A stretch of 32,000 nucleotides of DNA from positions 1,170,001-1,202,000 of the forward strand of contig NC_008818.1 in the NCBI RefSeq assembly GCF_000015145.1, given 5' to 3'. The notes under the pieces were generated by a model, which saw only the letters and a list, made by a program, of their open reading frames with translations, searched no databases and had not been told where the DNA came from. Within the stretch, counting starts at the first letter, position 1. Each line of letters starts with the position of its first letter. This document shows, in pieces, positions 1,412-16,511 of the stretch. A program made the translations under genes and the position numbers. The DNA comes from Hyperthermus butylicus DSM 5456 (GTDB lineage Archaea; Thermoproteota; Thermoprotei_A; Sulfolobales; Pyrodictiaceae).

Positions 1412-1523
1412 GGGGCCGTCGTCTAGCCTGGCAGGATGCCAGCCTGGGGACGCACCCCGCCGCCCGAAAGGGCGGGCGCCAGAGCGCTGGTGGTCCCGGG
1501 TTCAAATCCCGGCGGCCCCACCA
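1412..1523 (+). tRNA. tRNA-Pro (anticodon GGG) with a ~35 nt intron (about 1450-1484) after position 37, CCA encoded
   Basis: Hand fold: acceptor GGGGCCG/CGGCCCC, D stem GTCT/GGAT, anticodon stem CCAGC/GCTGG, loop CT-GGG-G then intron, T arm CCGGG-TTCAAAT-CCCGG, discriminator A plus CCA. The intron contains a CGCCC-GAAA-GGGCG hairpin. Confidence 0.8.
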
Positions 1524-3682: not shown

Positions 3683-3760
3683 GGGCCCGTAGCTCAGCCA
3701 GGACAGAGCGCCGGCCTCCGGAGCCGGAGGTCCCGGGTTCAAATCCCGGCGGGCCCGCCA
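3683..3760 (+). tRNA. tRNA-Arg (anticodon CCG), CCA encoded
   Basis: Hand fold: GGGCCCG TA GCTC AGCCAGGAC AGAGC G CCGGC CT-CCG-GA GCCGG AGGTC CCGGG TTCAAAT CCCGG CGGGCCC G CCA. All stems are perfect. Confidence 0.9.
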
Positions 3761-3902: not shown

Positions 3903-5192
3903 ATGATGGGCAGGCAATCCCGGCCGGGGAGCCTTGGTGAAGCCTTGTAGACCCCTCCAAGCTGGACCAGGAGCTTAGGAGGAGGCTCCTCGAGAGGCTT
4001 GTCAAAAAGCTCGGAGTCAAGGGAGCCTCCGAACTGCTGGGCGTGGACCGGACGCTCATATACCGCATGAGGAAGGGCAAGGTAGCCGTGGGAGACCACC
4101 ACGTCCCCAGGATCCTCAGCGGGCTAAGCCAGGAGGAGTTCGAGGAGGAATTAACCCTTGGAGAGAAGCTCGAGTCCCTAGGGATAATAAGCGAGGACAA
4201 GGTGAACTACACCCTACTCCTCCAGATCCTAGCCGTTGCGATGAGGGATCCCTACGCCCGGAGCCTGGTCCTACGGTACGTTACCTAGCACTACCGCGAG
4301 GACCTAAGGAGGATGCTAGAGACGGAGCTGGAGCTGAAACGACTAGAATGGACCCGCGGCTTCGAGGAGTACCTTCGCAGCCCGCCTAAGGGCAGGCCTA
4401 TAGCGAGGGAGGACACCATAGCATACTACCGTAACCTCTTCAAGCGACACCTAGAGGGCAGGAAGCTATCGAGGCAGCTTGTCGAGGAGGTGTCAGAGTC
4501 AAGCAACCAATGGCTGCGGGTCGTGTTCAAGGCACTACGCCAACTACCTCTATACTCGGGGCGAGATTAGCCACCAAACCCTCCACTGGATCCAAGCAAG
4601 AGTCCCGGGAAGGCGTACCCCCAAGACTCCCAGGAACCCAGCGGTAGACCTAGAGGAGCTACGCTCAACGCTAGCCTACCTAGCAGGGAACCATGAGAGG
4701 TACTATCTCCTCTACAGGCTAATGCTAGAATCCGGCCTGAGGTTCGAGCATGCCCTGCGCCTCCTCGCCTCCCCCATACTGGAGGGTAGCGTGGTCGTAT
4801 ACGACCGTGTCTACCCCAGGCTATACTGTGATGAGGGGAGGGGCTTCTGTAGGCTCTACCTTGGATTCAACCAGGGGGTTAAGAGGGCTGAGTTCGCCTA
4901 CTTCTCCACCAAGACCCGTAGGCTGGTCGAGGACCTCACACCCTGGAGCGTGCACCGCAGGAGCGTCGAGCGCTACGTCTCAAGGCATGGATTGATGAGG
5001 CCTGGGCTCTTGAGGAAGGCCTCTTGGCAGCTGCTTATAGCCTCGGGTGTGCCCCGCGAGGTTGCCCGCTTTATCCATTCTCGCTTCGGCGAGCTCAGGG
5101 TCAGCGAGTCATACTACGAGGGCCTGGTGAGGGAGGCAGACCAGTGGTACCCACGCTACCTCAAGCACCTCAAGAGCCTGAACCTGACCTAG
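3903..5192 (+). pseudogene. tyrosine recombinase / integrase, disrupted
   Basis: Three pieces are present. ATG 3903 (MMGRQSRPGSLGEAL*) shifts into frame 2 (LVDPSKLDQELRRRLLERLVKKLGVKGASELLGVDRTLIYRMRKGK, an HTH). An in-frame TAG lies at 4286-4288 (..LRYVT*HYREDLRRMLETE..). A frameshift near 4530-4536 joins ..WLRVVFKA to HYANYLYTRGEIS... The C-terminal part has YYLLYRLMLESGLRFEHALRL and FIHSRFGELRVSESYY, which resemble the catalytic Arg and the H-x-x-R...Y region. Confidence 0.65.
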
Positions 5193-5452: not shown

Positions 5453-6072
5453 TTATCTCTCATATTCCTCCCTCAGCCTTCTCCGCAGTGTGGAGTAACC
5501 CACTCCCAGCACCCGGGCTACGTCTCTTAGGCTCAGGCCTTTCCCACGGAGCTCCTCGTATTTCTTCCAGTCTATTGGCTTCCTGGGCCTTCCCACACGC
5601 TTACCCTCCAGTTTGGCCCTCCTCATGCCCTCCCTTGTACGCTGCCTTAGCAGCTCTCTTTCCCTTTCAGCCGCCCATGCTAGGACTGCTATGACTAGCT
5701 TCCTGACCTGGGGGTCTAGGCTCTGTAGGAAGGACTCCCTAGGGCTTACTGGGGGGACTGGGGCTCCCATCTCCTCCAGCTCCTCTACTGCCCTGAGGGT
5801 CTCGTAGAAGCTTCTTCCAATCCTTTACAGCTCGTACACAAGGACGGGCAGTGGCTTAACCCTCACCCTCTCAAGGAGCCTCCTATATGCAGGCCTGCCT
5901 CTCGGGGAAACCGCGCCGCTCACGCCATGATCCACGAACCATTCCTCTACGCGGAAACCGTGCTCCCGGGCCCATTCGAGTATTGCTATCTTCTGGTTTC
6001 CCGGATTCTCGTTATCGAGGCTTACCCGGATGTAGGCGTAGGCGCTCCTAGCCCCGGAACCCTTATGACCAT
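5453..6072 (-). pseudogene. serine recombinase (resolvase/invertase family with C-terminal HTH), disrupted
   Basis: Minus-strand translation: ..ARSAYAYIRVSLDNENPGNQKIAILEWAREHGFRVEEWFVDHGVSGAVSPRGRPAYRRLLERV..VLVYEL*RIGRSFYETLRAVEELEEMGAPV...ERERELLRQRTREGMRRAKLEGKRVGRPRK..GLSLRDVARVLGVGYSTLRRRL. An in-frame TAA lies at 5825-5827. The only nearby ATG (6072) is one frame off, so there is also a start-proximal frameshift. Confidence 0.75.
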
Positions 6073-6121: not shown

Positions 6122-6756
6122 CTACCGAGCACTCCCATCGAGTTCATCGATAATCTCGTATAGTGCCTGGATTAAGTATGGGCGGAGGGCGGCGTCCGGG
6201 AGGTATCCCTGGACGCCTGGGGTTGTAGCTAGTGTTAGGAGCGCTGAGGAGCACGCTTGAGCAAGTAACTCTATGCTAGACCGAGCCCACTTGTTCACTG
6301 TCGTTACGCCTAGAGGTGTCTTGGCCCCGAATGTCTGGACCTCAGCCTTGACAACGTTCATCTGCCGGTTATAATAAATCTTGACTATCCTTGTGCCGTC
6401 GCCTGTAAGCATTCCCTTGAAGCTGTCAACTCCCCACTTGAGTGGGATGTAGGTTTCGAGCCTCGTCACGCGCCGTGCCCTCTCCATACTGGCCCTGATC
6501 GCTAGATCCCACAGGGTGAGCCCATCCTCGGAGGTGATCACTAGGGGATCCCTTCTATATGCGCTCTCCAGCCTAGCATTCTCCACAAGCAACACCGTGG
6601 AGGGCCCTCTGGGGTCGCCTGGGAGGTTGAGGATGTAGAGGCCTCCCCCGAGCCTTCTAACCAAGCCTCTCCTGCGAAGGCGCTGGAGCGCCTTGACAAC
6701 CTGGTAGTAGGTGAGGTTTACACCGTAGTATTCCTCAGCGTCGCCTATTATATTAT
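6122..6756 (-). pseudogene. element-borne protein with N-terminal winged-helix fragment, 5'-truncated
   Basis: The reading frame is open up to 6756 (..IIGDAEEYYGVNLTYYQVVKALQRLRRRGLVRRLGGG..), but there is no start codon before TTG 6664. The wHTH is cut off exactly where the composition drops to low GC. Function unknown. Confidence 0.5.
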
Positions 6757-6799: not shown

Positions 6800-8527
6800 T
6801 TAGCTTATTAACTTTTTCAATTTGCGATAGAGAACGATTGCTATTATGCTAATTGCGTATCCAAGAAGTCTTGAAGGTAGAAGTAGTATTAATAGTTCAT
6901 CGTAATACCCCAATGTGGTGCTTGATTTGCAGTTATTTACGCCTTCAACCTTGAATATCAGTGAATACTTGAGTTCCGATGATAGTGGTTCTCGCGAGAT
7001 AAGGCCTTTTTCTTCGAGCATCTTTATAACGTTTCTAGGATTTGAGTAAAACCATTTGCTGTCTACAACTATGTACTTAATGCAGTATTTTTTACTCATA
7101 TTATAGACTTTGTAGTAGCTAAGACTGTTCTTCACAAGATTATCGTAAACTATATAGTCCTTGTAGATACATCCCTCCATAAAACAGCTAAGCGCGTGCC
7201 ATGTCTTAGGGCTAAAAACGTTTATCCATTGGTTTCCATGAAATGTATCACCGTCCATCAGGTACGCTCGAAAGCCTTCACCAGTATTCTCCTTAAGGAA
7301 CTGAGCGACAAGGTATTCATCGCTATACACATAGGTATGGTCTGTGTGAAAGCTGTTCCAGTAGACTCCGACGTAGGCTGGCGTGTAGGCTGCAATGAAC
7401 GCTACTAGAGCAAGGTGCGCGAATAGAGTAATGCTATGTCTTCCTCGTGAATTCTTAGCTGCTCTGGATAGTGAGTCTAGGAAGCCTAGAACCATTAACA
7501 GCCCTAGGGTGGGTATGAGTCTGAGTCCTTGCCCGTAAACCGCCACAAGGATTGTAAACGCAAGAATGTAATATAATGGCAGTTTTTCAGCTCTCCTCGC
7601 AATCGTAACATACGCGATGACGGCGATAAGCCCCATAACAATTATCGGGAGTTGCACAGCAGGCTCATAGAGAGGCGGGTACGGGCTAGAGCTATGGGCG
7701 AGTATTGATAGCTTGAAGCTTAAAGGTGTTTTCACCCGTAGATAATGCTGCAACCCGAAGGGTAGTAGTGCTGGTATAAGCCACCATGCAGTATAAGCAG
7801 CTGAGAGTAGTACTCCTACCGCTACTAGGATTATTAGGTATGTTATAGCCCTAAAGCTTGCCCCTCTCCTATAATGCGTGAGGATCTTAGCAACGAAAGT
7901 TGTAAGAGCCAGGATTGCGAGTTCGAGTGAGGCTATAAGGTGGGTTAGTAGCGTTAGGGCGGAGAATATGCTGAAACGCTTAACCTCATCGGAATCACCA
8001 GAATCTAGGAGCTTAACGAGGCTTGCTAGGGATAGGAAGGCGAAGGCTTCGCCTAGTATCCTAGTATACTCCCAATAAACTGCAATAGTTGATACGTATC
8101 CTGATATCAACGGCGCGGCTAGGGCTAGGAGTAGGGATGCCCTGCTTGAACCACTTACGCTGTAGGCGAAGGAGTATATAGCCCTAAGGAAAGCGTATAT
8201 GGCTATGAAGTACGCTAGATAGGCTCCATATATAAAGCTGCCAGCTAATAGTCCAAGAGCGAATATGAGTAGAAGGCCTAGAGGAGGGTAGAACCGAAGT
8301 AGGTCGAAACCCCCACACCACGCTGGCGTGTACAGACCGTAGGAGTGTAGCTCCTTAGCCCACGAGATGTAGTATGCTATGGTTGCACTGTGGAAGTAGC
8401 CTCTCTCAAAGCTAGGAAGCCCCTCAGCTGTAAGGAGAGGATGTGCTAGTATGAGCGCCCATAACACTATTGCTATAGATGCAACAGTCTCGAATGGTAA
8501 TGATCTTGCAAACCTCATCAAGGCCAC
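6800..8527 (-). CDS. large polytopic membrane protein, GT-C-like (putative glycosyltransferase/polymerase) with C-terminal extracytoplasmic domain and terminal TM anchor
   Basis: 575 aa with more than 12 hydrophobic helices. The N-terminal loop YTPAWCGGFDLLRFYPPLGLLL resembles, from memory, the loop of archaeal COG5617/YfhO-like GT-C membrane proteins. A ~170 aa Tyr/Lys-rich soluble domain follows, then a final TM plus RKLKK. The likely start is ATG 8518, which overlaps the upstream stop as TGATG. Confidence 0.6.
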   Translation of the reverse strand: MALMRFARSLPFETVASIAIVLWALILAHPLLTAEGLPSFERGYFHSATIAYYISWAKELHSYGLYTPAWCGGFDLLRFYPPLGLLLIFALGLLAGSFIYGAYLAYFIAIYAFLRAIYSFAYSVSGSSRASLLLALAAPLISGYVSTIAVYWEYTRILGEAFAFLSLASLVKLLDSGDSDEVKRFSIFSALTLLTHLIASLELAILALTTFVAKILTHYRRGASFRAITYLIILVAVGVLLSAAYTAWWLIPALLPFGLQHYLRVKTPLSFKLSILAHSSSPYPPLYEPAVQLPIIVMGLIAVIAYVTIARRAEKLPLYYILAFTILVAVYGQGLRLIPTLGLLMVLGFLDSLSRAAKNSRGRHSITLFAHLALVAFIAAYTPAYVGVYWNSFHTDHTYVYSDEYLVAQFLKENTGEGFRAYLMDGDTFHGNQWINVFSPKTWHALSCFMEGCIYKDYIVYDNLVKNSLSYYKVYNMSKKYCIKYIVVDSKWFYSNPRNVIKMLEEKGLISREPLSSELKYSLIFKVEGVNNCKSSTTLGYYDELLILLLPSRLLGYAISIIAIVLYRKLKKLIS

Positions 8528-9075
8528 CCTGCATATCTACTAGTTCTATAGATCCAGTCAACCCACAGTGTTGCAACCAGTAGTATCATGAAAGCGCCGC
8601 CAAGCACGTCGTGGAAGAAACGGAACGCTGCATAGCCCTGCACAACGCCAGCAACTCCGGACACAAACATGCGGACTATGTTAGCGAAGAAGAGGATTGT
8701 CGATCCCACAATGCCTGCCTTCACTTTCTGCCACTTACTAATCCTCGGGGTAAAAACTACGAGTAGGATGTAGACAATTAGAGAGTATATGCCAACGCAG
8801 GAAGGAGTGAGCACTATTGTGACAACATTCCCCCCTCCCCAGATCATGAGTGCATTATGGGCTACATCAATCACATTAATGCCCAGCGCTTTATAGGAGA
8901 GGATCATCACCCTCTTCTCAATCAACACTACTGGCTTGTAGAGAGACGTAAATATAATGACGTAGAGTATTACCGTTATCACTGCTATGGAGACTAATAA
9001 GCTATAGAAGCTATTGGTGCGAGCTTTTCTAATCACTGTAGAACCTCTCGTACTTACCCCTCTTGCTCGTAACAT
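8518..9075 (-). CDS. exosortase/archaeosortase-family protein (small, ~5 TM)
   Basis: The sequence LTPSCVGIYSL ... FFANIVRMF ... FFHDVLGG gives a Cys, an Arg 42 residues later and a His 20 residues after that, all at membrane-helix ends. This is the Cys/Arg/His layout of the EpsH/archaeosortase family. An alternative start at GTG 9036 would overlap the GT2 stop by 8 nt. Confidence 0.6.
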   Translation of the reverse strand: MLRARGVSTRGSTVIRKARTNSFYSLLVSIAVITVILYVIIFTSLYKPVVLIEKRVMILSYKALGINVIDVAHNALMIWGGGNVVTIVLTPSCVGIYSLIVYILLVVFTPRISKWQKVKAGIVGSTILFFANIVRMFVSGVAGVVQGYAAFRFFHDVLGGAFMILLVATLWVDWIYRTSRYAGWP

Positions 9076-10372
9076 GCCATACCGCCCTCCTCGTAATCAA
9101 GTATTTTAAGGTCCCTATAGCATGGATTAAGGCAGTATAATATATCATCAAGATCATGTACCCTGCAACCACTACACTATTCATATAACCGCATTTCTCA
9201 AGTATGCACCCGGCAACTACGAGAGTTTCAATGCCAATCAGCCATAAATAGACTCCTATAGGCCATACAAGCTCCAGCCGCCCATAGCCTGCTAAAGCTA
9301 GGATCAAAGGCACAATTGTATTCACGTAAACCCATAACCCATTTGTGAAGAAGAGCCCTTGCAGTATATACCCGATCTTCTCGGTAAATGTGAGGTTTTC
9401 ACTGCTAACAGCATCAACGAACGTTTTGAAGAACTCGTCAAGTGTTCCTACGGACCATCTTATCTGCTGCCTCCAGAAGGCGCGTTGAGTCCTAGGCACG
9501 GAGCCGTTAGCGTATGCTTCATGAGAAGCTATAACCTTCAGGTTTGGAATGCTTAATGCCGCGTCAATCGTGAGCCTGAAGTCCTCTGATAAACTGCCCT
9601 CCCTAAACCTCACAGCCTCCAATACACGTCTACTTATCAGGCCGCATGAACCTGTGAAGAAGGGGAATAACCTCAGCCAGTATCTTCCAACAATGTTGAT
9701 TATCGCGCCCGCCATGGATGCACGATAGAGAAGGCCGAATAAAGTGTTAGAGCCCTTCACATGCCTCTGGTAGCCCTGTACAATATCGGCCTCCTCGTCA
9801 AAGGCGAGCTCGACAAGCTTTAAAACCATGTCGGAGGGAGGCTCGAAGTCGGCGTCCAGGATAAGTATGTAGTCAACGTTATACATTTCGAGAAGGATCT
9901 CTATAGCCTCATTTAAAGCACCAGCTTTAAGGCCTTTCCTCCCCTCTCTTTTAAGGTGGAGTATTCTACCATTACTTCTCACCGAGATATTGGAAATTTC
10001 ATGCGATAAGCTTGAGTCGGTTGAATCGTCAACCACTATCGTTATTACGTACGGGTAGTCTATCCTCATAATAGCCTCAAGAGAGGAGAGCACCTCGTAA
10101 TCGTTATAGACGGGCACTATTATACCTACCCTCGGCCATCCATAGGGCGACATCTTCCTAATGTAGCCTCTAGGCCTCGGAGAACCGTTCATTAAGAATT
10201 CAATGAAAGACGATATGTAGAAGACAGCATATACTCCAAGAACTGCGCTGGAGATAACGTAGAGAATGAAGAGTATATCTATGGCGGTTTCTCTAAGGAC
10301 TATAGGCCACCAGTATAGCTCCTTAAAGAAATACTCTATAACCGCATCTTCAAAGAAGCCCATAGCTCTCAC
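9029..10372 (-). CDS. family-2 glycosyltransferase, processive beta-glycan synthase type (cellulose/chitin-synthase-like)
   Basis: There are two N-terminal TM helices. GT-A core motifs are VGIIVPVYND, VVDDSTD, KAGALNEAIE, ILDADFEP (DxD), SLSEDFRL (ED) and RQQIRWSVG (QxxRW), followed by four C-terminal TM helices. The likely start is ATG 10363, preceded by GGTGA with a 5-nt spacer. Confidence 0.85.
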   Translation of the reverse strand: MRAMGFFEDAVIEYFFKELYWWPIVLRETAIDILFILYVISSAVLGVYAVFYISSFIEFLMNGSPRPRGYIRKMSPYGWPRVGIIVPVYNDYEVLSSLEAIMRIDYPYVITIVVDDSTDSSLSHEISNISVRSNGRILHLKREGRKGLKAGALNEAIEILLEMYNVDYILILDADFEPPSDMVLKLVELAFDEEADIVQGYQRHVKGSNTLFGLLYRASMAGAIINIVGRYWLRLFPFFTGSCGLISRRVLEAVRFREGSLSEDFRLTIDAALSIPNLKVIASHEAYANGSVPRTQRAFWRQQIRWSVGTLDEFFKTFVDAVSSENLTFTEKIGYILQGLFFTNGLWVYVNTIVPLILALAGYGRLELVWPIGVYLWLIGIETLVVAGCILEKCGYMNSVVVAGYMILMIYYTALIHAIGTLKYLITRRAVWHVTSKRGKYERFYSD

Positions 10373-10375
10373 CCG

Positions 10376-11569
10376 CTATTTTCTCGCACATATCTCAAGA
10401 AGGACATCTCTCCAGCCCCTATCCCGGAGAAGACTTGTCAAGTCCTCGAGGCCCACTAGGCTAATCTTGTAACGTTTTGCAACAGCCTCGACTTCAACAC
10501 CTTCATTAAGCTCTCTTACAACCCTGCAAAAATCGTCATCTCTTCTAGCTAAGCCCTCTATAAGCCTCCGTAACCCTTGTTCCCCCCTCAAATAGTAGTA
10601 CTTGTATTTCTTCCACTTGAAGGATGATATTATGCCCCGTGACTCGAGAACATAGATATGCCAAGAGAGAACAGCTTTACCTAGGCCTGTAAGTCTAACC
10701 AGCTCGTTTAGATGGGCAAACCCTTTCTCGCTAAGTATTGATACTAAATATTTCCTAGTACTATGCCTAAGTGCTTTTTCTGGATTAATGCGCCAGTATA
10801 GTATGATTACATACCGTATCTTACGCTGTATTCTCTCCAAATACCTGCTATTAGCCTGTGATGCCTCTAGAAGCCCCATAGCGCCAAGTATTATAAGGGC
10901 ACCTAAGCCCCTCCTATACCACGTAGAGGAAGGTGTCTCGACATTCATGCTTTCAAGAGCTTCTAGTAAAAGCTCCAGGTAGACGTTGTCCCTAGTATCA
11001 TAGTAGGCCCAGACGATGTTAAATGGTATAACTACTAGTAAACCTTCCCCTACTCTTACCCTGTAAAAAGACCCATGCTCATGGACTTGATCTCCTAGAA
11101 TCCCTACTACACGATATTTGCTCACGTTGTAGCCTCTAGGCATATTGATAGGTCCACCAACCAAGTTATCAATGATCCTTACAGGCAGGTCGTATTGGGA
11201 TAGAGCGGGCTTTAGCATCATGACACCATTGTAGGTAGTGACCACGATGCCACTGCCTAACATGAATGTCACGAGCTTCCTGGAGATCATTAAAATTTCC
11301 CGCTCTTCTTCGGGCTTCCAGTTAGGGTCTAGAAGCACTACAACATCCTCAGAAGGGTTGAGCCTCACCTTCCCAAGCTCGCGCAGGCCTACAACACTAT
11401 AGTTTACAGTCACACCGCTAGCCCTGCTGAAATTGAGGAAACTCCTTAAGTAGAAGAAATCATAATCGTCGGTAACCACATACAATATGCTTCTCGAAGA
11501 CGAATCATGCGTAGAAGCAATAGTGAGACTAGCCACCCATACCGGCGACACTAGCACTAGGATAACCAA
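10376..11569 (-). CDS. membrane-tethered winged-helix protein with an extracytoplasmic domain (DUF4350-like, from memory)
   Basis: The layout is an N-terminal hydrophobic segment, a ~215 aa domain (VVVLLDPNWKPEEEREIL...GSGIVVT), a TM helix (GLGALIILGAMGLL), then a cytoplasmic wHTH (RKYLVSILSEKGFAHLNELVRLTGLGKAVLSWHIYVLESRGIISSF). The N-terminus is unresolved; see the T8 tract at 11583-11590. Confidence 0.65.
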   Translation of the reverse strand: MVILVLVSPVWVASLTIASTHDSSSRSILYVVTDDYDFFYLRSFLNFSRASGVTVNYSVVGLRELGKVRLNPSEDVVVLLDPNWKPEEEREILMISRKLVTFMLGSGIVVTTYNGVMMLKPALSQYDLPVRIIDNLVGGPINMPRGYNVSKYRVVGILGDQVHEHGSFYRVRVGEGLLVVIPFNIVWAYYDTRDNVYLELLLEALESMNVETPSSTWYRRGLGALIILGAMGLLEASQANSRYLERIQRKIRYVIILYWRINPEKALRHSTRKYLVSILSEKGFAHLNELVRLTGLGKAVLSWHIYVLESRGIISSFKWKKYKYYYLRGEQGLRRLIEGLARRDDDFCRVVRELNEGVEVEAVAKRYKISLVGLEDLTSLLRDRGWRDVLLEICARK

Positions 11570-11582
11570 TGCCCACAGGAGG

Positions 11583-11590
11583 AAAAAAAA
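11583..11590 (-). other. A8 (+) / T8 (-) homopolymer forming a U_UUU_UUU slippery heptamer between ATG 11604 and the long ORF
   Basis: Minus strand reads ATGAGGTCTCCACGTTTTTTTTCCTCCTGTGGGCATTGGTT. The ATG frame stops at 11557-11559. Shifting -1 within the T run enters the long ORF frame. Confidence 0.7.
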
Positions 11591-11600
11591 CGTGGAGACC

Positions 11601-12350
11601 TCATAAACCCTCCACCACCCTATCCCTCGCCTTCACCGCTCTCCCTACCACAGCCAGCAGCGACGCTGCTAGAGCTAGCCCTACAAGGCTTAAAGGCGAC
11701 CCTAGCTCAGGAACCTCAGCACCATTAATGTACGCTGTTGCCGCGGCGCCTATAGCATACTCCGATGATGAAAGGTCTATATTAAGTGGCGTTGATGTGG
11801 TAGGCCTTACCCCCACGACCCTTATTTCGCTATCGTCATTACCATTTATAATAGTTGTTCCGTTAAAGGTGAACTGCGTCCACCCGCTAGGTGATCGAAG
11901 CACCCTGATCTCAACAGTAGAGTGGATCGAGCTTACATCGACCTTAAAGTTGGCTTTCTCTATCTGCGTATTCTCTGCAACTAGGACGCCATTAATATAG
12001 ATTGATTCGACGCTCACCTTTCTCCAATCAAGCCATCCATCACTACCTATCCAGATGTGCGCCTTACCAGGAGCCTCATCACTAATATGTACTTCCACTT
12101 CATCCTCGGGGTTCACATCTATCCAACCTAAACCACTTACTTTCATCCGACCTCCCTGGACAACCCTCATTTGCATCACACCATCAACAATCCATGCACG
12201 CCCATCCGTGTTTAACTCGAACTGCTTATAGTCTCCCCTCGAGCGTGCTGGCTGGGCTAAAGCTGGTACCGCAACCAGCAATGCTAATAGCACGGCAACA
12301 ACTACCATTCTTTTCATTGCCTTCTGCATACGCCTGCTCACCTTCAACAC
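11601..12350 (-). CDS. secreted beta-rich protein with C-terminal PEP-CTERM-like sorting signal (putative archaeosortase substrate)
   Basis: The signal peptide is MQKAMKRMVVVAVLLALLVAVPALA|QPA. The likely start is ATG 12329, with GGTGA 8 nt upstream. The C-terminus reads ..NGAEVPELGSP-LSLVGLALAASLLAVVG-RAVKARDR, which is a motif, a TM helix and a basic cluster. Confidence 0.75.
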   Translation of the reverse strand: MLKVSRRMQKAMKRMVVVAVLLALLVAVPALAQPARSRGDYKQFELNTDGRAWIVDGVMQMRVVQGGRMKVSGLGWIDVNPEDEVEVHISDEAPGKAHIWIGSDGWLDWRKVSVESIYINGVLVAENTQIEKANFKVDVSSIHSTVEIRVLRSPSGWTQFTFNGTTIINGNDDSEIRVVGVRPTTSTPLNIDLSSSEYAIGAAATAYINGAEVPELGSPLSLVGLALAASLLAVVGRAVKARDRVVEGL

Positions 12351-12355
12351 CCTTC

Positions 12356-12366
12356 AAAAATTAAAT
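12356..12366 (-). promoter_or_regulatory. TATA-like box (minus strand ATTTAATTTTT) for the five-gene operon
   Basis: This A/T box is centred about 32 nt upstream of ATG 12329, which implies a very short leader. It also places the TTG at 12350 upstream of the likely transcription start. Confidence 0.3.
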
Positions 12367-12705: not shown

Positions 12706-12764
12706 CCGGGCCTTTGGAGCCCCCGGGGGTCCCCCGGGTCCCTAATCCAGGCGGGCCCCCCACA
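12706..12764 (+). repeat. degenerate direct copy of tRNA-Arg anticodon arm to 3' end (putative decayed att site)
   Basis: ccgggcctttggagcccccgggggtcccccgggtccctaatccaggcgggccccccaca was aligned with tRNA 3711-3762, ccggcctccggagccggaggtcccgggttcaaatcccggcgggcccgccaca. 45 of 52 positions are identical, with four small C/G-run insertions. No 5' half of a tRNA is present. Confidence 0.6.
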
Positions 12765-12971: not shown

Positions 12972-13241
12972 CTAGTTGTACATGACAATCTCTCTGACGA
13001 AGCTGCATAACGGGTTGCTCCTACACGCAGTTTTCGCGGTTTTCTCGTACTCGTTTAATAGCGTCTTTCTTAGCAGTGCCTCGGGGTCTATTCCGGCCTC
13101 TTTGCTTGTCTCCTTGACCAGGTTGTAGATGTGCTGAACTTGTACTTTGATATGCTTCAGCGCTTGTCTCGAAGCTTTCAGCCCTTTAATGGCGTCGTCA
13201 AGACTCTCCAACAACTTCTGAATGCTAGCGTTTTTCGGCAT
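12972..13241 (-). CDS. hypothetical small alpha-helical protein
   Basis: 89-aa ORF with an ATG start and a Lys/Glu-rich, helix-like composition. No motif recognised. Confidence 0.45.
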   Translation of the reverse strand: MPKNASIQKLLESLDDAIKGLKASRQALKHIKVQVQHIYNLVKETSKEAGIDPEALLRKTLLNEYEKTAKTACRSNPLCSFVREIVMYN

Positions 13242-13334: not shown

Positions 13335-13826
13335 CTATAGGTTCGCCCTGCCTAGGAGCTTGTCAAGAGAAACCTTGACCTCAACAACTACCAGTTCGTC
13401 TTCTCGATAGCCTACGAAGTCAACTTCGCCTATATCTCCTCCTATGCGGGACAAGGGCCTATACCTTTTCGCCAACAGAAGCGTTACCGTTACTTGCTCA
13501 AGAAGGACTCCCTGATATTTATCCTCCAACCTCTTAAGATCTTCATAGTAGGTTTTTACCACTGGTAGTGCGAGACTATAGCCTAAACGTACGAGGCTGA
13601 CCAGTGTCCGTATAAGCTGTGTGATTTGGATTCCATGCTCGCTCGCCACGCATACTTTGTTTAGCTGCCCCACGATCTTTTCAAGATTCAGAATACTCTT
13701 TTCCACTGCCCTTTCCCAAGCTTTGCGATCTACATAGCCTAGGAGAAAGCTTAGGGCTGCCTTGCGGGCATAACTTTGCTCCATGCGCTTCTCCAGGGCG
13801 AGGTACAGGAGGCCCGCCAACACCAC
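13335..13826 (-). CDS. hypothetical protein with C-terminal PD-(D/E)xK-like motif (DUF234-like end), possibly 5'-frameshifted
   Basis: The C-terminus IGGDIGEVDFVGYREDELVVVEVK fits the D...E-x-K nuclease-fold pattern. The ORF 13751..14023 in another frame abuts it, which suggests a disrupted longer gene. Confidence 0.4.
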   Translation of the reverse strand: MVLAGLLYLALEKRMEQSYARKAALSFLLGYVDRKAWERAVEKSILNLEKIVGQLNKVCVASEHGIQITQLIRTLVSLVRLGYSLALPVVKTYYEDLKRLEDKYQGVLLEQVTVTLLLAKRYRPLSRIGGDIGEVDFVGYREDELVVVEVKVSLDKLLGRANL

Positions 13827-14211: not shown

Positions 14212-15129
14212 ATGCCGTGGGGGGCTAGGGACGTGGTGGGGCTTCCAGGGGAGCTGCTTCGGAGTGCCGAGGAGTTTTGCCGGGATGAGTTGTACAGTAG
14301 CATGATTTACCGGGCGCTAGCTGAGATTGAGAAGGATCCACACCGCCGGAAGCTCTTGGAAAAAATCGCGGAACAGGAGTACGAGCACTACCTGTTCTGG
14401 CGCAAGCTCCTCGGACGTGACTGTAGCGTTGGAAGACCCCGGGTTGGCCTCATGGCTGCCGGCTACCGGCTCCTCGGACCAGCATTTACGCTACGACTCC
14501 TAGAGCGGGGCGAAAGAGAAACCATTCGGAAGTACAGGGAGATGCTTCTCCACCTCCCGGGGGCCGAGAGGGCTAAGCTCGAGGAAATCATAAGGGATGA
14601 GAAGGAGCATGAGAGGAGGCTGTTAGAGGAGCTTGAAGATGCCAGGATAAAGTACCTGGGCTACGTGGCCCTAGGCCTCGCAGACGCAATAGTCGAGATA
14701 ACCGGTGTACACACAGGCTTCCTCGGCGCAACCTCGAACACAATCGTGGCCGGCGTGGCCGGCCTCGTCGTAGGCTTCTCAGCCGCAATGTCAATGGCCG
14801 GCGCAGCATACATACAAGCAAAACACAGCAAAGAGGAGAACCCGCCCGTAAGCGCCATAGTAACCGGGATAAGCTACATACTCTCCGTAGTCCTCCTAGC
14901 ACTACCCTACTTCCTCACCAAAAGCATGCTGCTAAGCTTCACAGCAAGCATACTCGTTGGGATCACCTTGACGGGAGCCTTCACCTACTATAGCACGGTA
15001 ATCCAGGAGAAACCATTCACAAGAGAATTAGCCGAGAGCACCGCCCTACTCCTAGGCACAGCAGCCGCAAGCTACGCCTTCGGAGAACTACTAGGAACGA
15101 TACTAGGCATAAAAGGCATAATAGAATAG
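14212..15129 (+). CDS. VIT1/CCC1-family Fe/Mn transporter with N-terminal ferritin-like (rubrerythrin-type) domain
   Basis: The N-terminal domain has paired E..EEYEHY and DEKEHERRL metal-binding motifs. The C-terminal part has the GLADAIVEITGV...GFSAAMSMAGAAYIQ membrane domain typical of VIT1. Confidence 0.85.
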   Translation: MPWGARDVVGLPGELLRSAEEFCRDELYSSMIYRALAEIEKDPHRRKLLEKIAEQEYEHYLFWRKLLGRDCSVGRPRVGLMAAGYRLLGPAFTLRLLERGERETIRKYREMLLHLPGAERAKLEEIIRDEKEHERRLLEELEDARIKYLGYVALGLADAIVEITGVHTGFLGATSNTIVAGVAGLVVGFSAAMSMAGAAYIQAKHSKEENPPVSAIVTGISYILSVVLLALPYFLTKSMLLSFTASILVGITLTGAFTYYSTVIQEKPFTRELAESTALLLGTAAASYAFGELLGTILGIKGIIE

Positions 15130-15984
15130 CTACTACATCAACCTCCTATCTACATCATCTGCACACATTACCACAAGGAACCCAAACAACTCTCCATGAT
15201 AGAGCTTGGGGCCAACACCCATTACTTTTCAGTTACCACTAAAACCCCAGCACTACTACACCAAGCTTCTCAGCTACAACTACTTTAGACGCCAAAGGCT
15301 GAGTCATTAAGTTCTGAGGTATCCACAGAAGCCGCTGCCAGGAGAACCCGTACATTCTGGCGTGGACTGGAAGGATCAAGTTAGAGACGCTGGATCTTGG
15401 TGTTAGTGCGAGTTTGTAACTTAGGACTGTACAGTGTGGTCTACATGTGATTTATGGTACAGCTAAGTGCGTGGATCGTACGTATTGCTAGTTGTTACGC
15501 ATAGAAACATACATGTTCCTGCAAGCTGCTATGGCGCTGCCCGGAAATCGATTTGTATAACAGCGCTTTGGGATTACTATGTTGGACTTGTGGAAAAGTT
15601 ACGGTAGTTCTTGCAGTGTACATTATGAATTTGCCTCATTGTTTGTAACCGTAGGAATTTACTTGGGGCTTGCTACGGGTTTAGCAAGTCCTACGACACT
15701 TTCCATATATAGAAAAAGAGTTGCGTTGCAATGAAGGTAAGGGTATCCTACTGGCTTCATCGTAGAACTATACCTATTCATTGCAGTCGTATCGTTTCTC
15801 GTGCTATTACACTATGAAATTGGTTTAGAGTGCATATCTGGAATCTGCATAACACATGTAATCGAAGTCTCATCATGAGCCATGTTGATAGTTAGTATTG
15901 CCTTAGCAATGTATGTTGCCAAGAACATGAGTGGAAAGGGAAAAGTGTTAAGCGTATGATTCTGCCGACATTTATACAGCCCTC

Positions 15985-16366
15985 CTCTATGTTGGCTGTG
16001 TTGCCAGCCTTGCTGAGACTATAGTCAAAAGGCAGTGAGGGCTCTTGTTTGGCTAAATACAAGCTTCAAGTGGTGGCATAGAATGTGCATACAGCACGTT
16101 TGATAAGAATACCGGTGTTCCATTTCCATCTAAGGGTAGCTCTTCACCCTCAATTACTATCACATTGATTGTACTGCTAGACTACAACTTAGCCTTTAGA
16201 ATCCTCGTCATCCCTAGCTCAGCATCTACCGCATATATTATTAAATATCCAAATATCCTAGCAAGAGGTATGATGAAGTAGCCCGTGCCAGCCCGAAGTC
16301 TACTGCAACCCTACGCTTAGGGATTTCTCTTAACACGGTATCGATTACAAGATCTACAGGCTGCAT
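15985..16366 (-). pseudogene. heavily decayed class I SAM-dependent methyltransferase
   Basis: Minus-strand fragments occur in shifting frames: MQPVDLVIDTVLREIPKRRVAVDFGLARATSSYLLLGYLDI* (motif I region), IIYAVDAELGMTRILKAKL* (the v.gvD.s..ml..ak region) and INVIVIEGEELPLDGNGTPVFLSNVLYAHSMPPLEACI* (the ae.LP..d..fD.v.s..vl.h region). Confidence 0.55.
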
Positions 16367-16511
16367 GATTTTCCTTCAGCTAGACTCGAGAGCCCCGATT
16401 TTAGACGGTGATGCTGTTTACGGGTTCCTCCTGCACTATCATGCATTCAAACCAACCCATTATATTAAAATGGTGTGCTAGTAAAAAGTCTCGCCAGGAG
16501 GCGGTTAACCC

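What the first reader, a model, noticed from the sequence alone, without database searches (positions are those of the whole stretch)
6800..12350. Self-contained archaeosortase, substrate and processive glycan-synthase operon on a low-GC island
Five co-directional minus-strand genes are packed with coupling-type junctions. These are ATGA at 11601-11604, a 3-nt gap plus GGTGA before ATG 10363, an 8- or 47-nt overlap at 9029-9075, and TGATG at 8516-8520. In transcription order the genes encode: (1) a signal-peptide protein ending in VPELG, a TM helix and a basic cluster; (2) a membrane-tethered wHTH protein; (3) a GT2 with DxD/ED/QxxRW and flanking TM helices, which is the processive beta-glycan synthase architecture; (4) a small exosortase/archaeosortase-like protein; and (5) a 575-aa GT-C-like membrane protein. 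In bacteria, exosortase/PEP-CTERM systems are known to sit in exopolysaccharide loci. The characterised archaeal case (ArtA/PGF-CTERM in Haloferax) is not organised this way. A compact module that couples a dedicated sortase substrate, a polysaccharide synthase and its own membrane regulator, carried on mobile DNA in a crenarchaeote, is not something I can match to a described system. It could specify a lipid- or glycan-anchored surface protein together with a secreted matrix polymer (biofilm or cell-cell matrix).
Basis: partly seen in the sequence, partly recalled or inferred. Interest (0 to 1): 0.8.

Follow-up and report, generated by a model that had tools for sequence, protein, structure and literature searches.

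The report
Dedicated archaeosortase–glycosyltransferase surface-protein cassette
A heat-loving archaeon (Hyperthermus butylicus) carries, on an old virus-like insertion, a conserved five-gene kit that seems to make one small surface protein, cut off its membrane tail with a sortase-like enzyme, and build sugars with two membrane enzymes. It is an archaeal cousin of the little-studied bacterial XrtG system, and no paper in the searched library describes it.

Summary
Five co-directional minus-strand genes at 6800-12350 encode:
- a signal-peptide beta-sandwich protein ending in EVPELG, a TM helix and a basic tail;
- a membrane-tethered ArsR-type wHTH protein;
- a BcsA/PgaC-like GT2 with DxD/ED/QxxRW;
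- a 172-185 aa exosortase/archaeosortase-family protein with invariant Cys, Arg and His;
- a 575 aa GT-C-fold glycosyltransferase.

One correction: the ATGA at 11601-11604 is out of frame with gene 2.

The organism is Hyperthermus butylicus. The same five families co-occur in about 15 independent Desulfurococcales loci with unrelated flanks. They appear in two gene orders, and in one locus the sortase and the wHTH protein are fused. In H. butylicus the cassette lies between tRNA-Arg plus a virus-type integrase and a decayed copy of the tRNA 3' half, so it sits on an integrated element.

The sortase reaches no named Xrt/Art subfamily. Its closest known analogue is the bacterial XrtG system (target, small exosortase, QxxRW GT2). 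It is therefore a new variant of a known kind, not a new category.

Best model: a dedicated, self-regulated sortase system that processes one surface protein together with glycan synthesis. The biochemistry is untested.

The parts
11601..12329 (-). Gene 1 (p1, Hbut_1172): the putative sortase target. It has a Sec signal peptide (MQKAMKR...ALA|Q), an all-beta domain of about 170 aa, and a C-terminal tripartite signal: YINGAEVPELG, a TM helix, then RAVKARDR. The ORF is open up to GTG 12350, but GenBank uses ATG 12329.
   Evidence: ORF. The exact sequence equals ABM81007.1, annotated 'hypothetical protein'. The motif, TM helix and basic tail are conserved in 10 homologues. AF2 model: pLDDT 84.9, beta core over residues 35-201, terminal helices. 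No fold match in PDB or BFVD, with TM-score at most 0.16. Within the held sequences the tail motif occurs only in p1.
12356..12366 (-). AT-rich TATA-like element ATTTAATTTTT, about 32 nt upstream of ATG 12329. It is a candidate promoter for a leaderless or short-leader transcript.
   Evidence: Read directly from the sequence. This is inference only, because the promoter tool covers only sigma-70-type sites.
11584..11591 (-). T8 homopolymer between the gene 1 stop and the gene 2 ORF. It could be an oligo-T terminator or attenuator. It is also the point where the SD-preceded ATG 11604 and the gene 2 frame differ by one base.
   Evidence: T6-T7 runs follow the p1 stop in L001, L004 and L015.
10376..11569 (-). 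Gene 2 (p2): a bitopic membrane protein. It has an N-terminal hydrophobic anchor or signal, a conserved extracytoplasmic domain of about 190 aa (invariant TD..D, DPN, NG, N.VWAY.D), a TM helix, a cytoplasmic ArsR-type winged helix, and a C-terminal helical region with an invariant Cys.
   Evidence: HTH hits for the window protein itself fall below cutoffs: NF033788 scores 28.5 bits against 55, and PF01022 scores 16 against 22. Across the family, 9 of 11 members hit HTH_20 or HTH_5, with a best E-value of 1.3e-10. Alignment. A natural fusion to the sortase exists (P0041).
9029..10372 (-). Gene 3 (p3): a membrane GT2 of the processive-synthase type. It has N-terminal TM helices, a GT-A domain carrying VDDSTD, LDAD, SED and QQIRW, and C-terminal TM helices. 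The likely start is ATG 10363, behind GGTGA.
   Evidence: Pfam: PF00535 at 7.9e-16 and PF13632 at 1.2e-15. NCBIfam: best full-length alignment to PgaC_IcaA (residues 55-426 on model positions 20-385 of 407) and CelA, both far below equivalog cutoffs. The closest solved homologue is BcsA (1e-07), with the ED and QxxRW motifs aligned. Motif conservation. TM segments.
8518..9075 (-). Gene 4 (p4): a small 4-5 TM exosortase/archaeosortase-family protein, 185 aa from ATG 9075 or 172 aa from GTG 9036. Cys93, Arg135 and His155 are invariant.
   Evidence: TIGR04178 scores 50.8 bits (cutoff 23) and PF09721 scores 26.7 (cutoff 25.7). Every named subfamily falls below its cutoff: XrtG 39 against 102.75, ArtF 31.3 against 150, ArtC 26.6 against 100. 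Invariant residues. hhalign to a bona fide XrtG gives probability 93.8% and E 1.7e-7, with Cys, Arg and His aligned.
6800..8527 (-). Gene 5 (p5): a GT-C-fold membrane glycosyltransferase. It has about 12-13 TM helices, an invariant Asp75-x-x-Arg78-x-YPP in the first outer loop, an extracytoplasmic alpha/beta domain (about residues 395-530, with a YSDEY motif), and a final TM helix. The NCBI start is ATG 8518.
   Evidence: AF2 model: pLDDT 90.2, pTM 0.91. Foldseek against PDB: STT3 (E 4e-9, TM 0.63), DPY19, AglB, AftA, ArnT, PglB, ALG9 and PMT4. Five of 15 homologues hit PF10131 PTPS_related, which belongs to GT-C clan CL0111 (PMC7801869). No NCBIfam hit.
3683..3760 (+). tRNA-Arg (CCG): the putative attL end of the integrated element.
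   Evidence: ARAGORN and Rfam.
4479..5192 (+). Archaeal-virus-type tyrosine integrase.
   Evidence: PF16795 at 3.1e-20. It is 33% identical to the integrase of Aeropyrum globular virus 1, E 2e-7.
5453..5770 (-). Serine-recombinase (resolvase) C-terminal fragment with an HTH.
   Evidence: PF00239 matches only model positions 107-144 of 145, at 9.6e-07, plus HTH families.
12709..12764 (+). Decayed direct copy of the 3' ~51 nt of tRNA-Arg (CCG): the putative attR remnant. It lies just beyond the gene 1 promoter region.
   Evidence: The local alignment scores 44. One hundred Markov simulations of the window gave a mean of 23.9, sd 2.4 and maximum 35.

Best explanation
This is a dedicated (probably one enzyme, one target) archaeosortase system, packaged with its own glycosyltransferases and its own membrane-bound regulator.

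Proposed mechanism:
1. p1 is exported through Sec and held in the membrane by its C-terminal helix.
2. The small multi-pass Cys/Arg/His enzyme p4 has its active site at the outer membrane face. It recognises the [N-G-x-E-V-P-E-(L/I/T)-G] motif that abuts that helix, cuts off the helix and basic tail, and transfers the new C-terminus to an acceptor. This step is inferred.
3. p3 is a BcsA/PgaC-like synthase. It polymerises and translocates a beta-linked glycan or oligosaccharide from an NDP-sugar.
4. p5 is a GT-C enzyme. It uses a dolichol-phosphate-linked sugar on the outer face to glycosylate either p1 or the p3 product.
5. The glycan or glycolipid made by p3 and p5 is the most likely partner or acceptor of processed p1. 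The result would be a glycan-associated surface protein, acting as an adhesion or matrix component.
6. p2 has an outside domain and a cytoplasmic wHTH. It works physically with the sortase and probably autoregulates the operon.

Shown: gene identities, folds, conserved residues, strict co-occurrence, and the sortase-p2 fusion.
Inferred: cleavage, the acceptor, the sugar chemistry, regulation, and the biological role.
For: - Sortase family membership and the invariant Cys93, Arg135 and His155.
- p1 homologues all carry a signal peptide plus a motif, TM helix and basic tail. In the held DNA the motif occurs only in p1.
- All five families are present in every locus long enough to show them. Flanks are unrelated, and there are two gene orders: p1-p2-p3-p4-p5 and p1-p3-p4-p2-p5.
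- In L025, p4 and p2 are one polypeptide (P0041). Its sequence suggests membrane topologies consistent with the separate proteins, and p1, GT2 and GT-C are its neighbours.
- Overlapping or SD-linked junctions are conserved. The p3/p4 overlap is 23 nt in four of the seven order-A loci tabulated and 8-14 nt in three others.
- p3 has D, DxD, ED and QxxRW motifs and aligns with BcsA, including the region of the N-terminal TM helices.
- p5 is a confident GT-C model whose best matches are protein glycosyltransferases.
- The bacterial XrtG locus has the analogous trio, including a target ending in ...NTVPSF, a TM helix and KRRKK.
- 'Dedicated' sortase-type systems, with the enzyme encoded next to its single target, are an established concept (PMC3237569; bioRxiv 10.1101/2023.06.07.544157).
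Against: - There is no experimental evidence for any member, and no paper in the searched library mentions these genes.
- The motif is loose in the second clade (L014 ...HLSMVSSEGM, L015 ...DVPVITPEGL).
- p1 lacks the Ser/Thr-rich linker reported for predicted archaeosortase substrates (bioRxiv 10.1101/2023.06.07.544157).
- The acceptor is unknown. ArtA attaches a lipid, not a glycan.
- The cassette encodes no Dol-P-sugar synthase or flippase, except for a neighbouring one in L015.
- In H. butylicus itself the p2 5' end is disturbed by the T8 frame problem.
- In Thermogladius sp. 4427co, p2 and p5 are split. The module is therefore dispensable and may be partly inactive in cultured strains.
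- Convergence of Cys, Arg and His in 3D could not be measured, because both structure-prediction jobs went to p5 and p1 and so no p4 model was made.
Confidence: 0.6

Rival explanations
1. Dedicated glycoprotein factory with no free polymer. p3 builds an oligosaccharide or a short glycan. p5, acting like an oligosaccharyl- or mannosyl-transferase, puts sugars on p1 itself. The sortase then removes the anchor and lipid-anchors or releases the glycoprotein, as ArtA does. The glycan is a decoration, not the acceptor or a matrix.
For: The best structural matches of p5 are protein-modifying GT-C enzymes: STT3, AglB, PglB, DPY19 and PMT. p1 carries a partly conserved N-G-T sequon (FNGT in several homologues). 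ArtA substrates are lipid-anchored glycoproteins.
Against: p3 has the full processive-synthase architecture (QxxRW, flanking TM helices, BcsA/PgaC-like), not that of a Dol-P-sugar synthase. The sequon is absent in L001 and L006. GT-C enzymes such as ArnT, AftA and EmbC also match and act on lipids or glycans.
Confidence: 0.2
2. Synthase-accessory model. p1 (a beta-sandwich with a C-terminal TM anchor) and the outer domain of p2 are uncleaved accessory subunits that guide the nascent glycan, as BcsB does for BcsA. The sortase-like protein is a scaffold, not a protease.
For: From my own knowledge, not tested here: BcsB is an extracytoplasmic beta-sandwich/flavodoxin-like protein with a single C-terminal TM anchor, and BcsA activity needs it. 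From tools: p1 gives faint lectin/glucanase-like fold hints, which are not significant. The p2 outer domain gives one weak Glyco_hydro_42M hit in one member (E 0.031).
Against: Invariant Cys, Arg and His in p4 across 30-50% identical sequences, aligned with those of XrtG, argue for catalysis. A conserved sequence motif placed exactly at the outer end of the p1 TM helix is the hallmark of sorting signals. p1 and BcsB show no detectable homology, and the PDB profile search found nothing real.
Confidence: 0.08
3. The module is part of the general N-glycosylation (agl) or S-layer biogenesis machinery of the cell, not a separate system.
For: p5 structurally resembles AglB and STT3. Archaeal surface proteins are commonly glycosylated.
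Against: p5 gives no hit to any Pfam or NCBIfam model, STT3 included, at E<=1. The cassette is patchy among Desulfurococcales, lies on an integrated element in H. butylicus, and is pseudogenised in Thermogladius. Housekeeping AglB would not behave this way. p1 is a 242 aa protein, too small to look like an S-layer subunit (my judgement).
Confidence: 0.03
4. In H. butylicus specifically the cassette is decaying cargo of an old integrated element and is no longer functional as a unit.
For: The SD-preceded ATG 11604 is out of frame with the p2 ORF. The attR-like tRNA copy is about 80% decayed, and the resolvase is a fragment. A sister cassette in Thermogladius is pseudogenised.
Against: All five ORFs are intact and full length relative to their homologues. 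p2 can still start at TTG 11569 with a hydrophobic N-terminus. The T8/T9 difference could be a homopolymer sequencing error or a slippage site.
Confidence: 0.09

Closest known systems
XrtG / Firmicu-CTERM system of Bacillota (NCBIfam TIGR03110 XrtG and TIGR03111 XrtG-associated GT2)
   Same: Both have a small exosortase-family protein (about 170-195 aa, 4-5 TM) with aligned Cys, Arg and His (hhalign 93.8%, E 1.7e-7). In both it is encoded next to a membrane GT2 of about 440 aa carrying DxD, ED and QxxRW (QRQRW in Aneurinibacillus). In both there is a signal-peptide protein of about 216-250 aa that ends in a short V-P-x-hydrophobic motif, a TM helix and a basic cluster. L. plantarum is reported to have the target, XrtG and two associated glycosyltransferases (PMC12854382). 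Both are uncharacterised biochemically.
   Different: The scores are far below the family cutoffs: XrtG 39 against 102.75, and TIGR03111 23.6 against 363.95. The targets are not homologous (hhalign probability 0.45%). The gene order differs. The archaeal cassette always adds a GT-C enzyme and a membrane-tethered wHTH protein. The Aneurinibacillus locus instead has a small PTPS-like protein. The hosts are hyperthermophilic Thermoproteota.
ArtA / PGF-CTERM archaeosortase system (Haloferax volcanii)
   Same: It belongs to the same enzyme superfamily, with a proposed Cys/Arg/His catalytic set. It removes a C-terminal TM helix from Sec or Tat substrates that bear a tripartite signal.
   Different: ArtA is larger (model length 271). 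It serves many substrates scattered around the genome, recognises PGF, attaches a lipid, and is not embedded in a GT operon. TIGR04125 gave no hit at E<=1. The review places archaeosortases in a subset of Euryarchaeota (it lists ArtA-ArtE) and says Sulfolobales lack one.
XrtA / PEP-CTERM exosortase systems in EPS loci of Gram-negative bacteria
   Same: A sorting enzyme is genomically linked to exopolysaccharide glycosyltransferases and to a dedicated regulator set (PrsK/PrsR) (PMC1569441). The motif is V-P-E-like.
   Different: XrtA has 8 TM helices and many targets, works in an outer-membrane setting, and is regulated by a two-component system with sigma-54. Here there is a single target, a one-component membrane wHTH, and no outer membrane.
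Synthase-dependent beta-glycan systems (BcsA, PgaC/IcaA, NodC)
   Same: p3 shares their domain order, catalytic motifs and flanking TM helices.
   Different: p3 scores 50-56 bits against equivalog cutoffs of 422-699. There are no BcsB, PgaD or PilZ partners. The product is unknown.
GT-C glycosyltransferases (Pfam clan CL0111; PF10131 PTPS_related, STT3/AglB, DPY19, ArnT)
   Same: The fold matches with TM-score 0.5-0.63. Some homologues hit PF10131.
   Different: The H. butylicus protein itself hits no Pfam or NCBIfam model. It has its own C-terminal domain (YSDEY motif) and an extra C-terminal TM helix.

Membership tests
Exosortase/archaeosortase superfamily (TIGR04178, PF09721) | Signature HMM score above the curated cutoff | tested here: met
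   TIGR04178 scores 50.8 bits against 23. PF09721 scores 26.7 against 25.7.
Exosortase/archaeosortase superfamily (TIGR04178, PF09721) | Conserved Cys, Arg and His (putative catalytic set) | tested here: met
   C93, R135 and H155 are invariant in 8 sequences at 32-51% identity. They align with the Cys, Arg and His of a true XrtG. Their spatial clustering was not measured.
Exosortase/archaeosortase superfamily (TIGR04178, PF09721) | Multi-pass membrane protein | tested here: met
   A hydropathy scan found 4-5 hydrophobic segments. The Cys sits at the start of TM2, after the first inter-helix loop.
Exosortase/archaeosortase superfamily (TIGR04178, PF09721) | Co-occurring proteins with a C-terminal motif, TM helix and basic signal, plus an N-terminal signal peptide | tested here: met
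   p1 is adjacent in every locus.
Exosortase/archaeosortase superfamily (TIGR04178, PF09721) | Endoproteolytic removal of the C-terminal helix | not testable with these tools
   This needs mass spectrometry or genetics.
XrtG system (Bacillota) | Sortase scores at least 102.75 bits on TIGR03110 | tested here: not met
   The score is 39.0 bits. The control P0167 scores 124.3.
XrtG system (Bacillota) | Adjacent GT2 is a TIGR03111 member (cutoff 363.95) | tested here: not met
   The score is 23.6 bits, with a partial alignment. BLASTP against a true member gives E 4e-4 over 98 aa.
XrtG system (Bacillota) | Target carries the Firmicu-CTERM domain | tested here: not met
   p1 has no NCBIfam hit at E<=1. 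hhalign against the protein encoded next to xrtG in Aneurinibacillus (annotated 'hypothetical protein'; taken here to be the target) gives probability 0.45%, and only the V-P motif lines up.
XrtG system (Bacillota) | Gene neighbourhood of target, small exosortase and QxxRW GT2 | tested here: met
   Compare the window with L027.
Archaeosortase A-E, ArtF, ArtH, pacearchaeosortase | Subfamily HMM score above cutoff | tested here: not met
   ArtF 31.3 against 150, ArtC 26.6 against 100, pacearchaeosortase 20.4 against 80, ArtH 13.3 against 200. ArtA, ArtB, ArtD and ArtE gave no hit at E<=1. The 20 nearest cluster representatives also reach no subfamily cutoff.
Processive (synthase-type) GT2, BcsA/PgaC-like | D, DxD, ED and QxxRW motifs in a GT-A domain flanked by TM helices | tested here: met
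   VDDSTD, LDAD, SED and QQIRW are conserved. TM segments lie at about residues 24-51 and 368-419. BcsA alignment.
Processive (synthase-type) GT2, BcsA/PgaC-like | Makes and translocates a polymer | not testable with these tools
   Biochemistry is needed. Equivalog cutoffs are not reached: PgaC 55.6 against 422, CelA 49.8 against 699.
GT-C glycosyltransferases (clan CL0111) | GT-C membrane fold | tested here: met
   The model has pLDDT 90.2. Twenty-seven PDB matches have E<=1e-3, and all of them are GT-C enzymes.
GT-C glycosyltransferases (clan CL0111) | Membership of PF10131 PTPS_related | tested here: inconclusive
   The window protein has no hit at E<=1. Five of 15 homologues hit the model, best E 1.8e-07. 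UniRef names the H. butylicus protein after this domain.
GT-C glycosyltransferases (clan CL0111) | Acidic residue in the first extracytoplasmic loop | tested here: inconclusive
   Asp75 and Arg78 are invariant between TM1 and TM2. Their equivalence to the catalytic Asp was not checked by superposition.
ArsR/SmtB-type winged-helix regulators | wHTH HMM match | tested here: inconclusive
   The window protein falls below cutoffs: NF033788 scores 28.5 against 55, and PF01022 scores 16 against 22. Nine of 11 family members hit HTH_20 or HTH_5, best E 1.3e-10. DNA binding is untested.
tRNA-targeted integrative element | Integrase next to an intact tRNA, plus a direct repeat of the tRNA 3' part at the far end | tested here: met
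   tRNA-Arg at 3683-3760, integrase at 4479-5192 (PF16795), and a repeat at 12709-12764 that scores 44 against a simulated maximum of 35. However, low GC continues to about 13500, and the integrase segment is GC-rich, so the element is mosaic or old.

The most novel reading that the evidence does not exclude
The cassette is a new kind of sortase system in which the sorting enzyme is wired to a transmembrane transcription factor; in some genomes the two are literally fused. Processed p1 would be joined to a glycan or glycolipid made by the co-encoded synthase and GT-C enzyme. That would make it a protein-polysaccharide conjugate rather than the lipid anchor of ArtA. It would be the first glycan-linked sortase product in archaea, the first sortase-coupled signalling unit, and the first functional archaeosortase system in Thermoproteota. 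It would also be horizontally mobile on virus-type integrative elements.
Probability: 0.2. Interest if true: 0.8.

Novelty: new variant of a known kind. Interest (0 to 1): 0.6.

Why it matters
- The review consulted places archaeosortases in a subset of Euryarchaeota and says Sulfolobales lack one. This cassette puts a complete, conserved enzyme-plus-target system in hyperthermophilic Desulfurococcales.
- It is compact, with one target, one sortase, two glycosyltransferases and one regulator. That makes it an unusually tractable model for a question open since 2006: what exosortase-family enzymes attach their substrates to, and why they are so often linked to polysaccharide genes.
- The sortase-wHTH fusion points to an unexplored regulatory link.
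- The parallel with the equally uncharacterised XrtG system of lactobacilli and enterococci means that results in either system would inform the other.

Tried and rejected
1. An exact look-up of the 185 aa sortase failed. NCBI uses the GTG 9036 start.
2. The first genome-contig scan, with a 4-sequence sortase profile, found nothing because its peptide patterns were too narrow. A second scan with the GT-C profile succeeded.
3. Haft et al. 2012 (PMC3256604), the key paper on archaeosortases, is not held. Statements about ArtF and XrtG therefore rest on NCBIfam scores and secondary papers.
4. I recalled that the XrtG neighbourhood contains a '6-pyruvoyl-tetrahydropterin-synthase-related' membrane protein equivalent to p5. 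Testing did not bear this out. p5 and its 14 homologues hit no related NCBIfam model, and the one XrtG locus I retrieved has only a small PTPS-like protein, not a GT-C. Whether the second 'XrtG-associated glycosyltransferase' of L. plantarum is a GT-C remains unchecked.
5. tblastn of an XrtG-like representative (P0045) against plasmids found nothing. The Enterococcus GT2 hit (H2) was not in an XrtG locus.
7. The copy of the tRNA 3' end at 1499-1523 is not an att remnant. It is the end of an intron-containing tRNA that ARAGORN missed.
8. The sigma-70 promoter and hairpin-terminator scans are uninformative for an archaeon.
9. I looked by eye for a p1-like motif next to the p2 TM helix, which would suggest that p2 is itself a sortase substrate. 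None is conserved.
The distances between Cys, Arg and His could therefore not be measured.

Full report
**What is in the window**

The window comes from Hyperthermus butylicus. The sortase-like protein is 99% identical to an NCBI protein on a 1,667,163-bp contig, annotated 'exosortase/archaeosortase family protein [Hyperthermus butylicus]'. Gene 1 is exactly Hbut_1172, a 'hypothetical protein'.

Three junctions are as described:
- TAG, then CGG, then GTG, with GGTGA lying 6 nt before ATG 10363.
- A 47-nt or 8-nt overlap at 9029-9075.
- TGATG at 8520-8516.

The fourth junction, ATGA at 11604-11601, is also there and is preceded by an SD-like GGTGGTGGAGGG. However, ATG 11604 is out of frame with gene 2 and stops after 15 codons. 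Gene 2 as sequenced begins at TTG 11569, after a T8 run. One more T would give MRSPRFFFLLWALVILV..., a normal signal-anchor of the length seen in homologues.

**What the five proteins are**

p4 (172-185 aa) passes the generic exosortase/archaeosortase signature (TIGR04178, 50.8 bits against 23) and PF09721 (26.7 against 25.7). It reaches no named subfamily. XrtG scores 39 against 102.75, ArtF 31 against 150, ArtC 27 against 100, and ArtA gives no hit. Cys93, Arg135 and His155 are invariant across eight homologues at 32-51% identity.

p3 is a GT2 carrying VDDSTD, LDAD, SED and QQIRW, flanked by TM helices. Its best full-length alignments are to PgaC/IcaA and CelA, and its closest solved homologue is BcsA.

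p5 had no family hit of its own. A 15-sequence alignment gave an AF2 model with pLDDT 90.2 and pTM 0.91. All 27 of its significant PDB matches are GT-C enzymes, led by STT3, DPY19 and AglB, followed by AftA, ArnT, PglB and ALG9. Five of 15 homologues hit PF10131, a GT-C clan member (PMC7801869).

p2 has an N-terminal hydrophobic segment, a conserved outer domain of about 190 aa, a TM helix followed by a basic stretch, and then an ArsR-type winged helix. The winged helix is weak in the window protein but clear across the family, where 9 of 11 members hit it with a best E-value of 1.3e-10.

p1 has a Sec signal peptide and a confidently modelled all-beta domain (pLDDT 84.9). That domain has no fold match in PDB or BFVD. 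Its C-terminus is a tripartite signal: YINGAEVPELG, a TM helix and a basic cluster.

**Is the association real?**

Yes. Searching with the sortase, and then with the GT-C profile, recovered about 15 independent loci. They come from an Ignisphaera MAG, Desulfurococcales, Acidilobaceae and Pyrodictiaceae MAGs, an uncultured Hyperthermus, Thermogladius sp. 4427co, and unclassified Thermoprotei metagenome contigs.

HMMs built from the five families show that every locus long enough carries all five, and that the flanking genes are unrelated from locus to locus. Two gene orders exist:
- p1-p2-p3-p4-p5: the window, L001, L004, L006, L007, L009, L011, L013, L017 and L022.
- p1-p3-p4-p2-p5: L014, L015, L018, L023 and L025.

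In L025 the sortase and p2 form one 575 aa polypeptide (P0041). It is 27% identical to p4 (E 3e-21) and 30% identical to p2 over 381 aa (E 5e-29). Its sequence suggests membrane topologies consistent with the separate proteins, and p1, GT2 and GT-C are its neighbours. Survival through rearrangement, together with a gene fusion, is strong evidence that all five act together, the wHTH protein included.

The p1 tail motif is conserved in the main clade as N-[GSA]-x-E-V-P-E-[LIT]-G. It is looser in the second clade. Whole genomes could not be scanned.

**How rare is it, and is it named?**

An exhaustive HMMER search of 1.84 billion cluster representatives with the sortase profile found 1002 relatives at E<=1e-3, but only 10 at E<=1e-30. 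The 20 nearest representatives pass only the generic signature, and none reaches any Xrt or Art subfamily cutoff. This is therefore an unnamed subfamily.

All p1 homologues that carry a name are annotated 'hypothetical protein'. No paper in the searched library mentions the H. butylicus genes. The review consulted places archaeosortases in a subset of Euryarchaeota and says Sulfolobales lack one.

**Closest known system**

[quoted passage not shown] It consists of a Firmicu-CTERM protein, XrtG and two XrtG-associated glycosyltransferases (PMC12854382).

I identified a bona fide XrtG among the distant hits (P0167, 124 bits against a cutoff of 102.75) and retrieved an annotated XrtG locus from an Aneurinibacillus megaplasmid. 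That locus contains:
- a 216 aa signal-peptide protein ending in ...NTVPSF, a TM helix and KRRKK;
- XrtG (193 aa);
- a 440 aa TIGR03111 GT2 with QRQRW.

The archaeal sortase profile aligns to this XrtG with 93.8% probability (E 1.7e-7), with Cys, Arg and His in register. The GT2s share only generic similarity (E 4e-4). The targets are not homologous beyond the V-P motif.

The archaeal cassette therefore works like an XrtG system and shares its core trio. It fails every membership cutoff, however, and it always carries two extra components: the GT-C enzyme and the membrane wHTH protein.

**Genomic setting**

The cassette has GC 0.46, against 0.58 on its left and 0.515 on its right. In the other genomes the cassette matches its flanks in GC, which is consistent with import into H. 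butylicus from a lower-GC relative.

To the left lie tRNA-Arg (CCG) at 3683-3760 and an archaeal-virus-type integrase at 4479-5192. The integrase hits PF16795 and is 33% identical to the Aeropyrum globular virus 1 integrase. A resolvase fragment follows.

Just beyond the gene 1 promoter region, at 12709-12764, lies a decayed direct copy of the last ~51 nt of that tRNA. Its alignment scores 44, against a simulated mean of 23.9 ± 2.4 and a maximum of 35. This pattern is the signature of a tRNA-targeted integrative element of about 9 kb.

The element is old or mosaic. The integrase segment is GC-rich, and low GC continues to about 13500. In the other genomes no integrase adjoins the cassette, so mobility is a feature of this instance rather than of the family.

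**Mechanism**

My best model (confidence 0.6) runs as follows.
1. p1 is exported and held in the membrane by its C-terminal helix.
2. p4 cleaves at the motif on the outer face and transfers p1 to an acceptor.
3. p3 makes and translocates a beta-glycan.
4. p5 uses a dolichol-phosphate sugar to modify either p1 or that glycan.
5. p2 works with the sortase and regulates the operon.

Gene identities, folds, conserved residues, co-occurrence and the fusion are shown. Cleavage, the acceptor, the sugar chemistry and regulation are inferred.

Rival readings:
- The cassette only makes a glycoprotein, with no free polymer (0.2). The best matches of p5 are protein glycosyltransferases.
- p1 and p2 are BcsB-like accessory subunits, and the sortase-like protein is not a protease (0.08).
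- The H. butylicus copy is decaying cargo (0.09).
- The cassette is part of general N-glycosylation (0.03). The patchy distribution, the lack of any STT3 HMM hit and the pseudogenes in Thermogladius argue against this.

**Verdict**

It is not categorically new. It is a new, unnamed, archaeal (Thermoproteota) variant of the dedicated exosortase-plus-glycosyltransferase theme already curated as XrtG. Its new features are a new target family, a new motif, a GT-C partner and a sortase-linked membrane transcription factor.

Noticed in passing
window 11584-11604 (minus strand): ATG 11604, preceded by an SD-like sequence, overlaps the gene 1 stop but is one base out of frame with gene 2. A T8 run separates them, and T9 would restore a canonical signal-anchor (MRSPRFFFLLWALV...). 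The cause could be a homopolymer sequencing error, a real frameshift, or a slippage or phase-variation site.
   Followed up: partly
L001 7229-7296; L004 7661-7735; L015 4730-4831; window 11584-11591: Oligo-T runs (T6-T8) sit just after the p1 stop codon in four loci. Archaeal RNA polymerase terminates at oligo-T (my own knowledge). This may attenuate transcription so that p1 is made in excess over the enzymes. In L004 the hydrophobic N-terminus of p2 is in frame upstream of the called start but has no ATG, GTG or TTG.
   Followed up: partly
window 12709-12764 (+): Decayed direct copy (about 80% identical) of the 3' ~51 nt of tRNA-Arg (CCG), 9 kb downstream of the intact gene. It is probably an attR remnant. 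Its 'anticodon' positions read TTG rather than CCG.
   Followed up: yes
window 1412-1520 (+): A third tRNA gene, 109 nt long and so presumably containing an intron. Rfam found it (44.2 bits) but ARAGORN missed it. Its 3' end matches that of tRNA-Arg with 2 mismatches in 25 nt.
   Followed up: partly
window 4479-5192 (+) and 5453-5770 (-): An integrase related to that of Aeropyrum globular virus 1 (33% identity), and a truncated serine recombinase of which only the last ~40 residues of the catalytic domain and the HTH remain. ORFs 6122-6664, 12972-13241 and 13335-13826 have no Pfam family.
   Followed up: partly
window 15001-16500: A second low-GC patch (0.41-0.47) with no ORF of 100 aa or more. 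It lies between a VIT1/rubrerythrin gene and a nitroreductase gene, and I did not examine it.
   Followed up: no
L022 3979-5167 and 6962-8730 (Thermogladius sp. 4427co chromosome): In this cultured isolate p2 is split into two ORFs and p5 into three, so the cassette is pseudogenised.
   Followed up: partly
L025 5951-6700 and 8001-9728: This locus carries the sortase::p2 fusion gene. Its p1 homologue ends ...NGQEVCCPRRAWRS*, but the TM helix and basic tail (SPQGLAVLVVLALLGVVLAGFRRL) are encoded in the +1 frame. That suggests an indel, either in the assembly or in the gene.
   Followed up: partly
L015 2756-3946: A GT2 with GtrA_DPMS_TM and NTP_transf_3 domains lies directly upstream of p1. It is the type that makes polyprenyl-phosphate sugars, so it could be the donor supplier for the GT-C. 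It is seen only in this locus.
   Followed up: no
p2 family alignment A8 (window 10376-11569): An invariant Cys lies 4-30 residues from the C-terminus of every p2 homologue. A nearly invariant Y-N-V-S-K-Y (an N-x-S sequon) lies in the outer domain. The function of the outer domain (invariant TD..D, DPN, NG, N.VWAY.D) is unknown.
   Followed up: no
L027 5448-6110 (Aneurinibacillus XrtG locus): The '6-carboxytetrahydropterin synthase' next to XrtG ends in KIGIGVATAVTIGIVVASKTYL. This resembles the TM tail of the adjacent putative target (VYGIGVATIGAGFILAKRRKK). It may be a second XrtG substrate.
   Followed up: no
L024 7001-8536: A distant p5 relative (28% identity) in a Thermoprotei MAG, with none of the other four families detected on the 15.5 kb fetched. 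GT-C proteins of this type therefore also occur outside the cassette.
   Followed up: no
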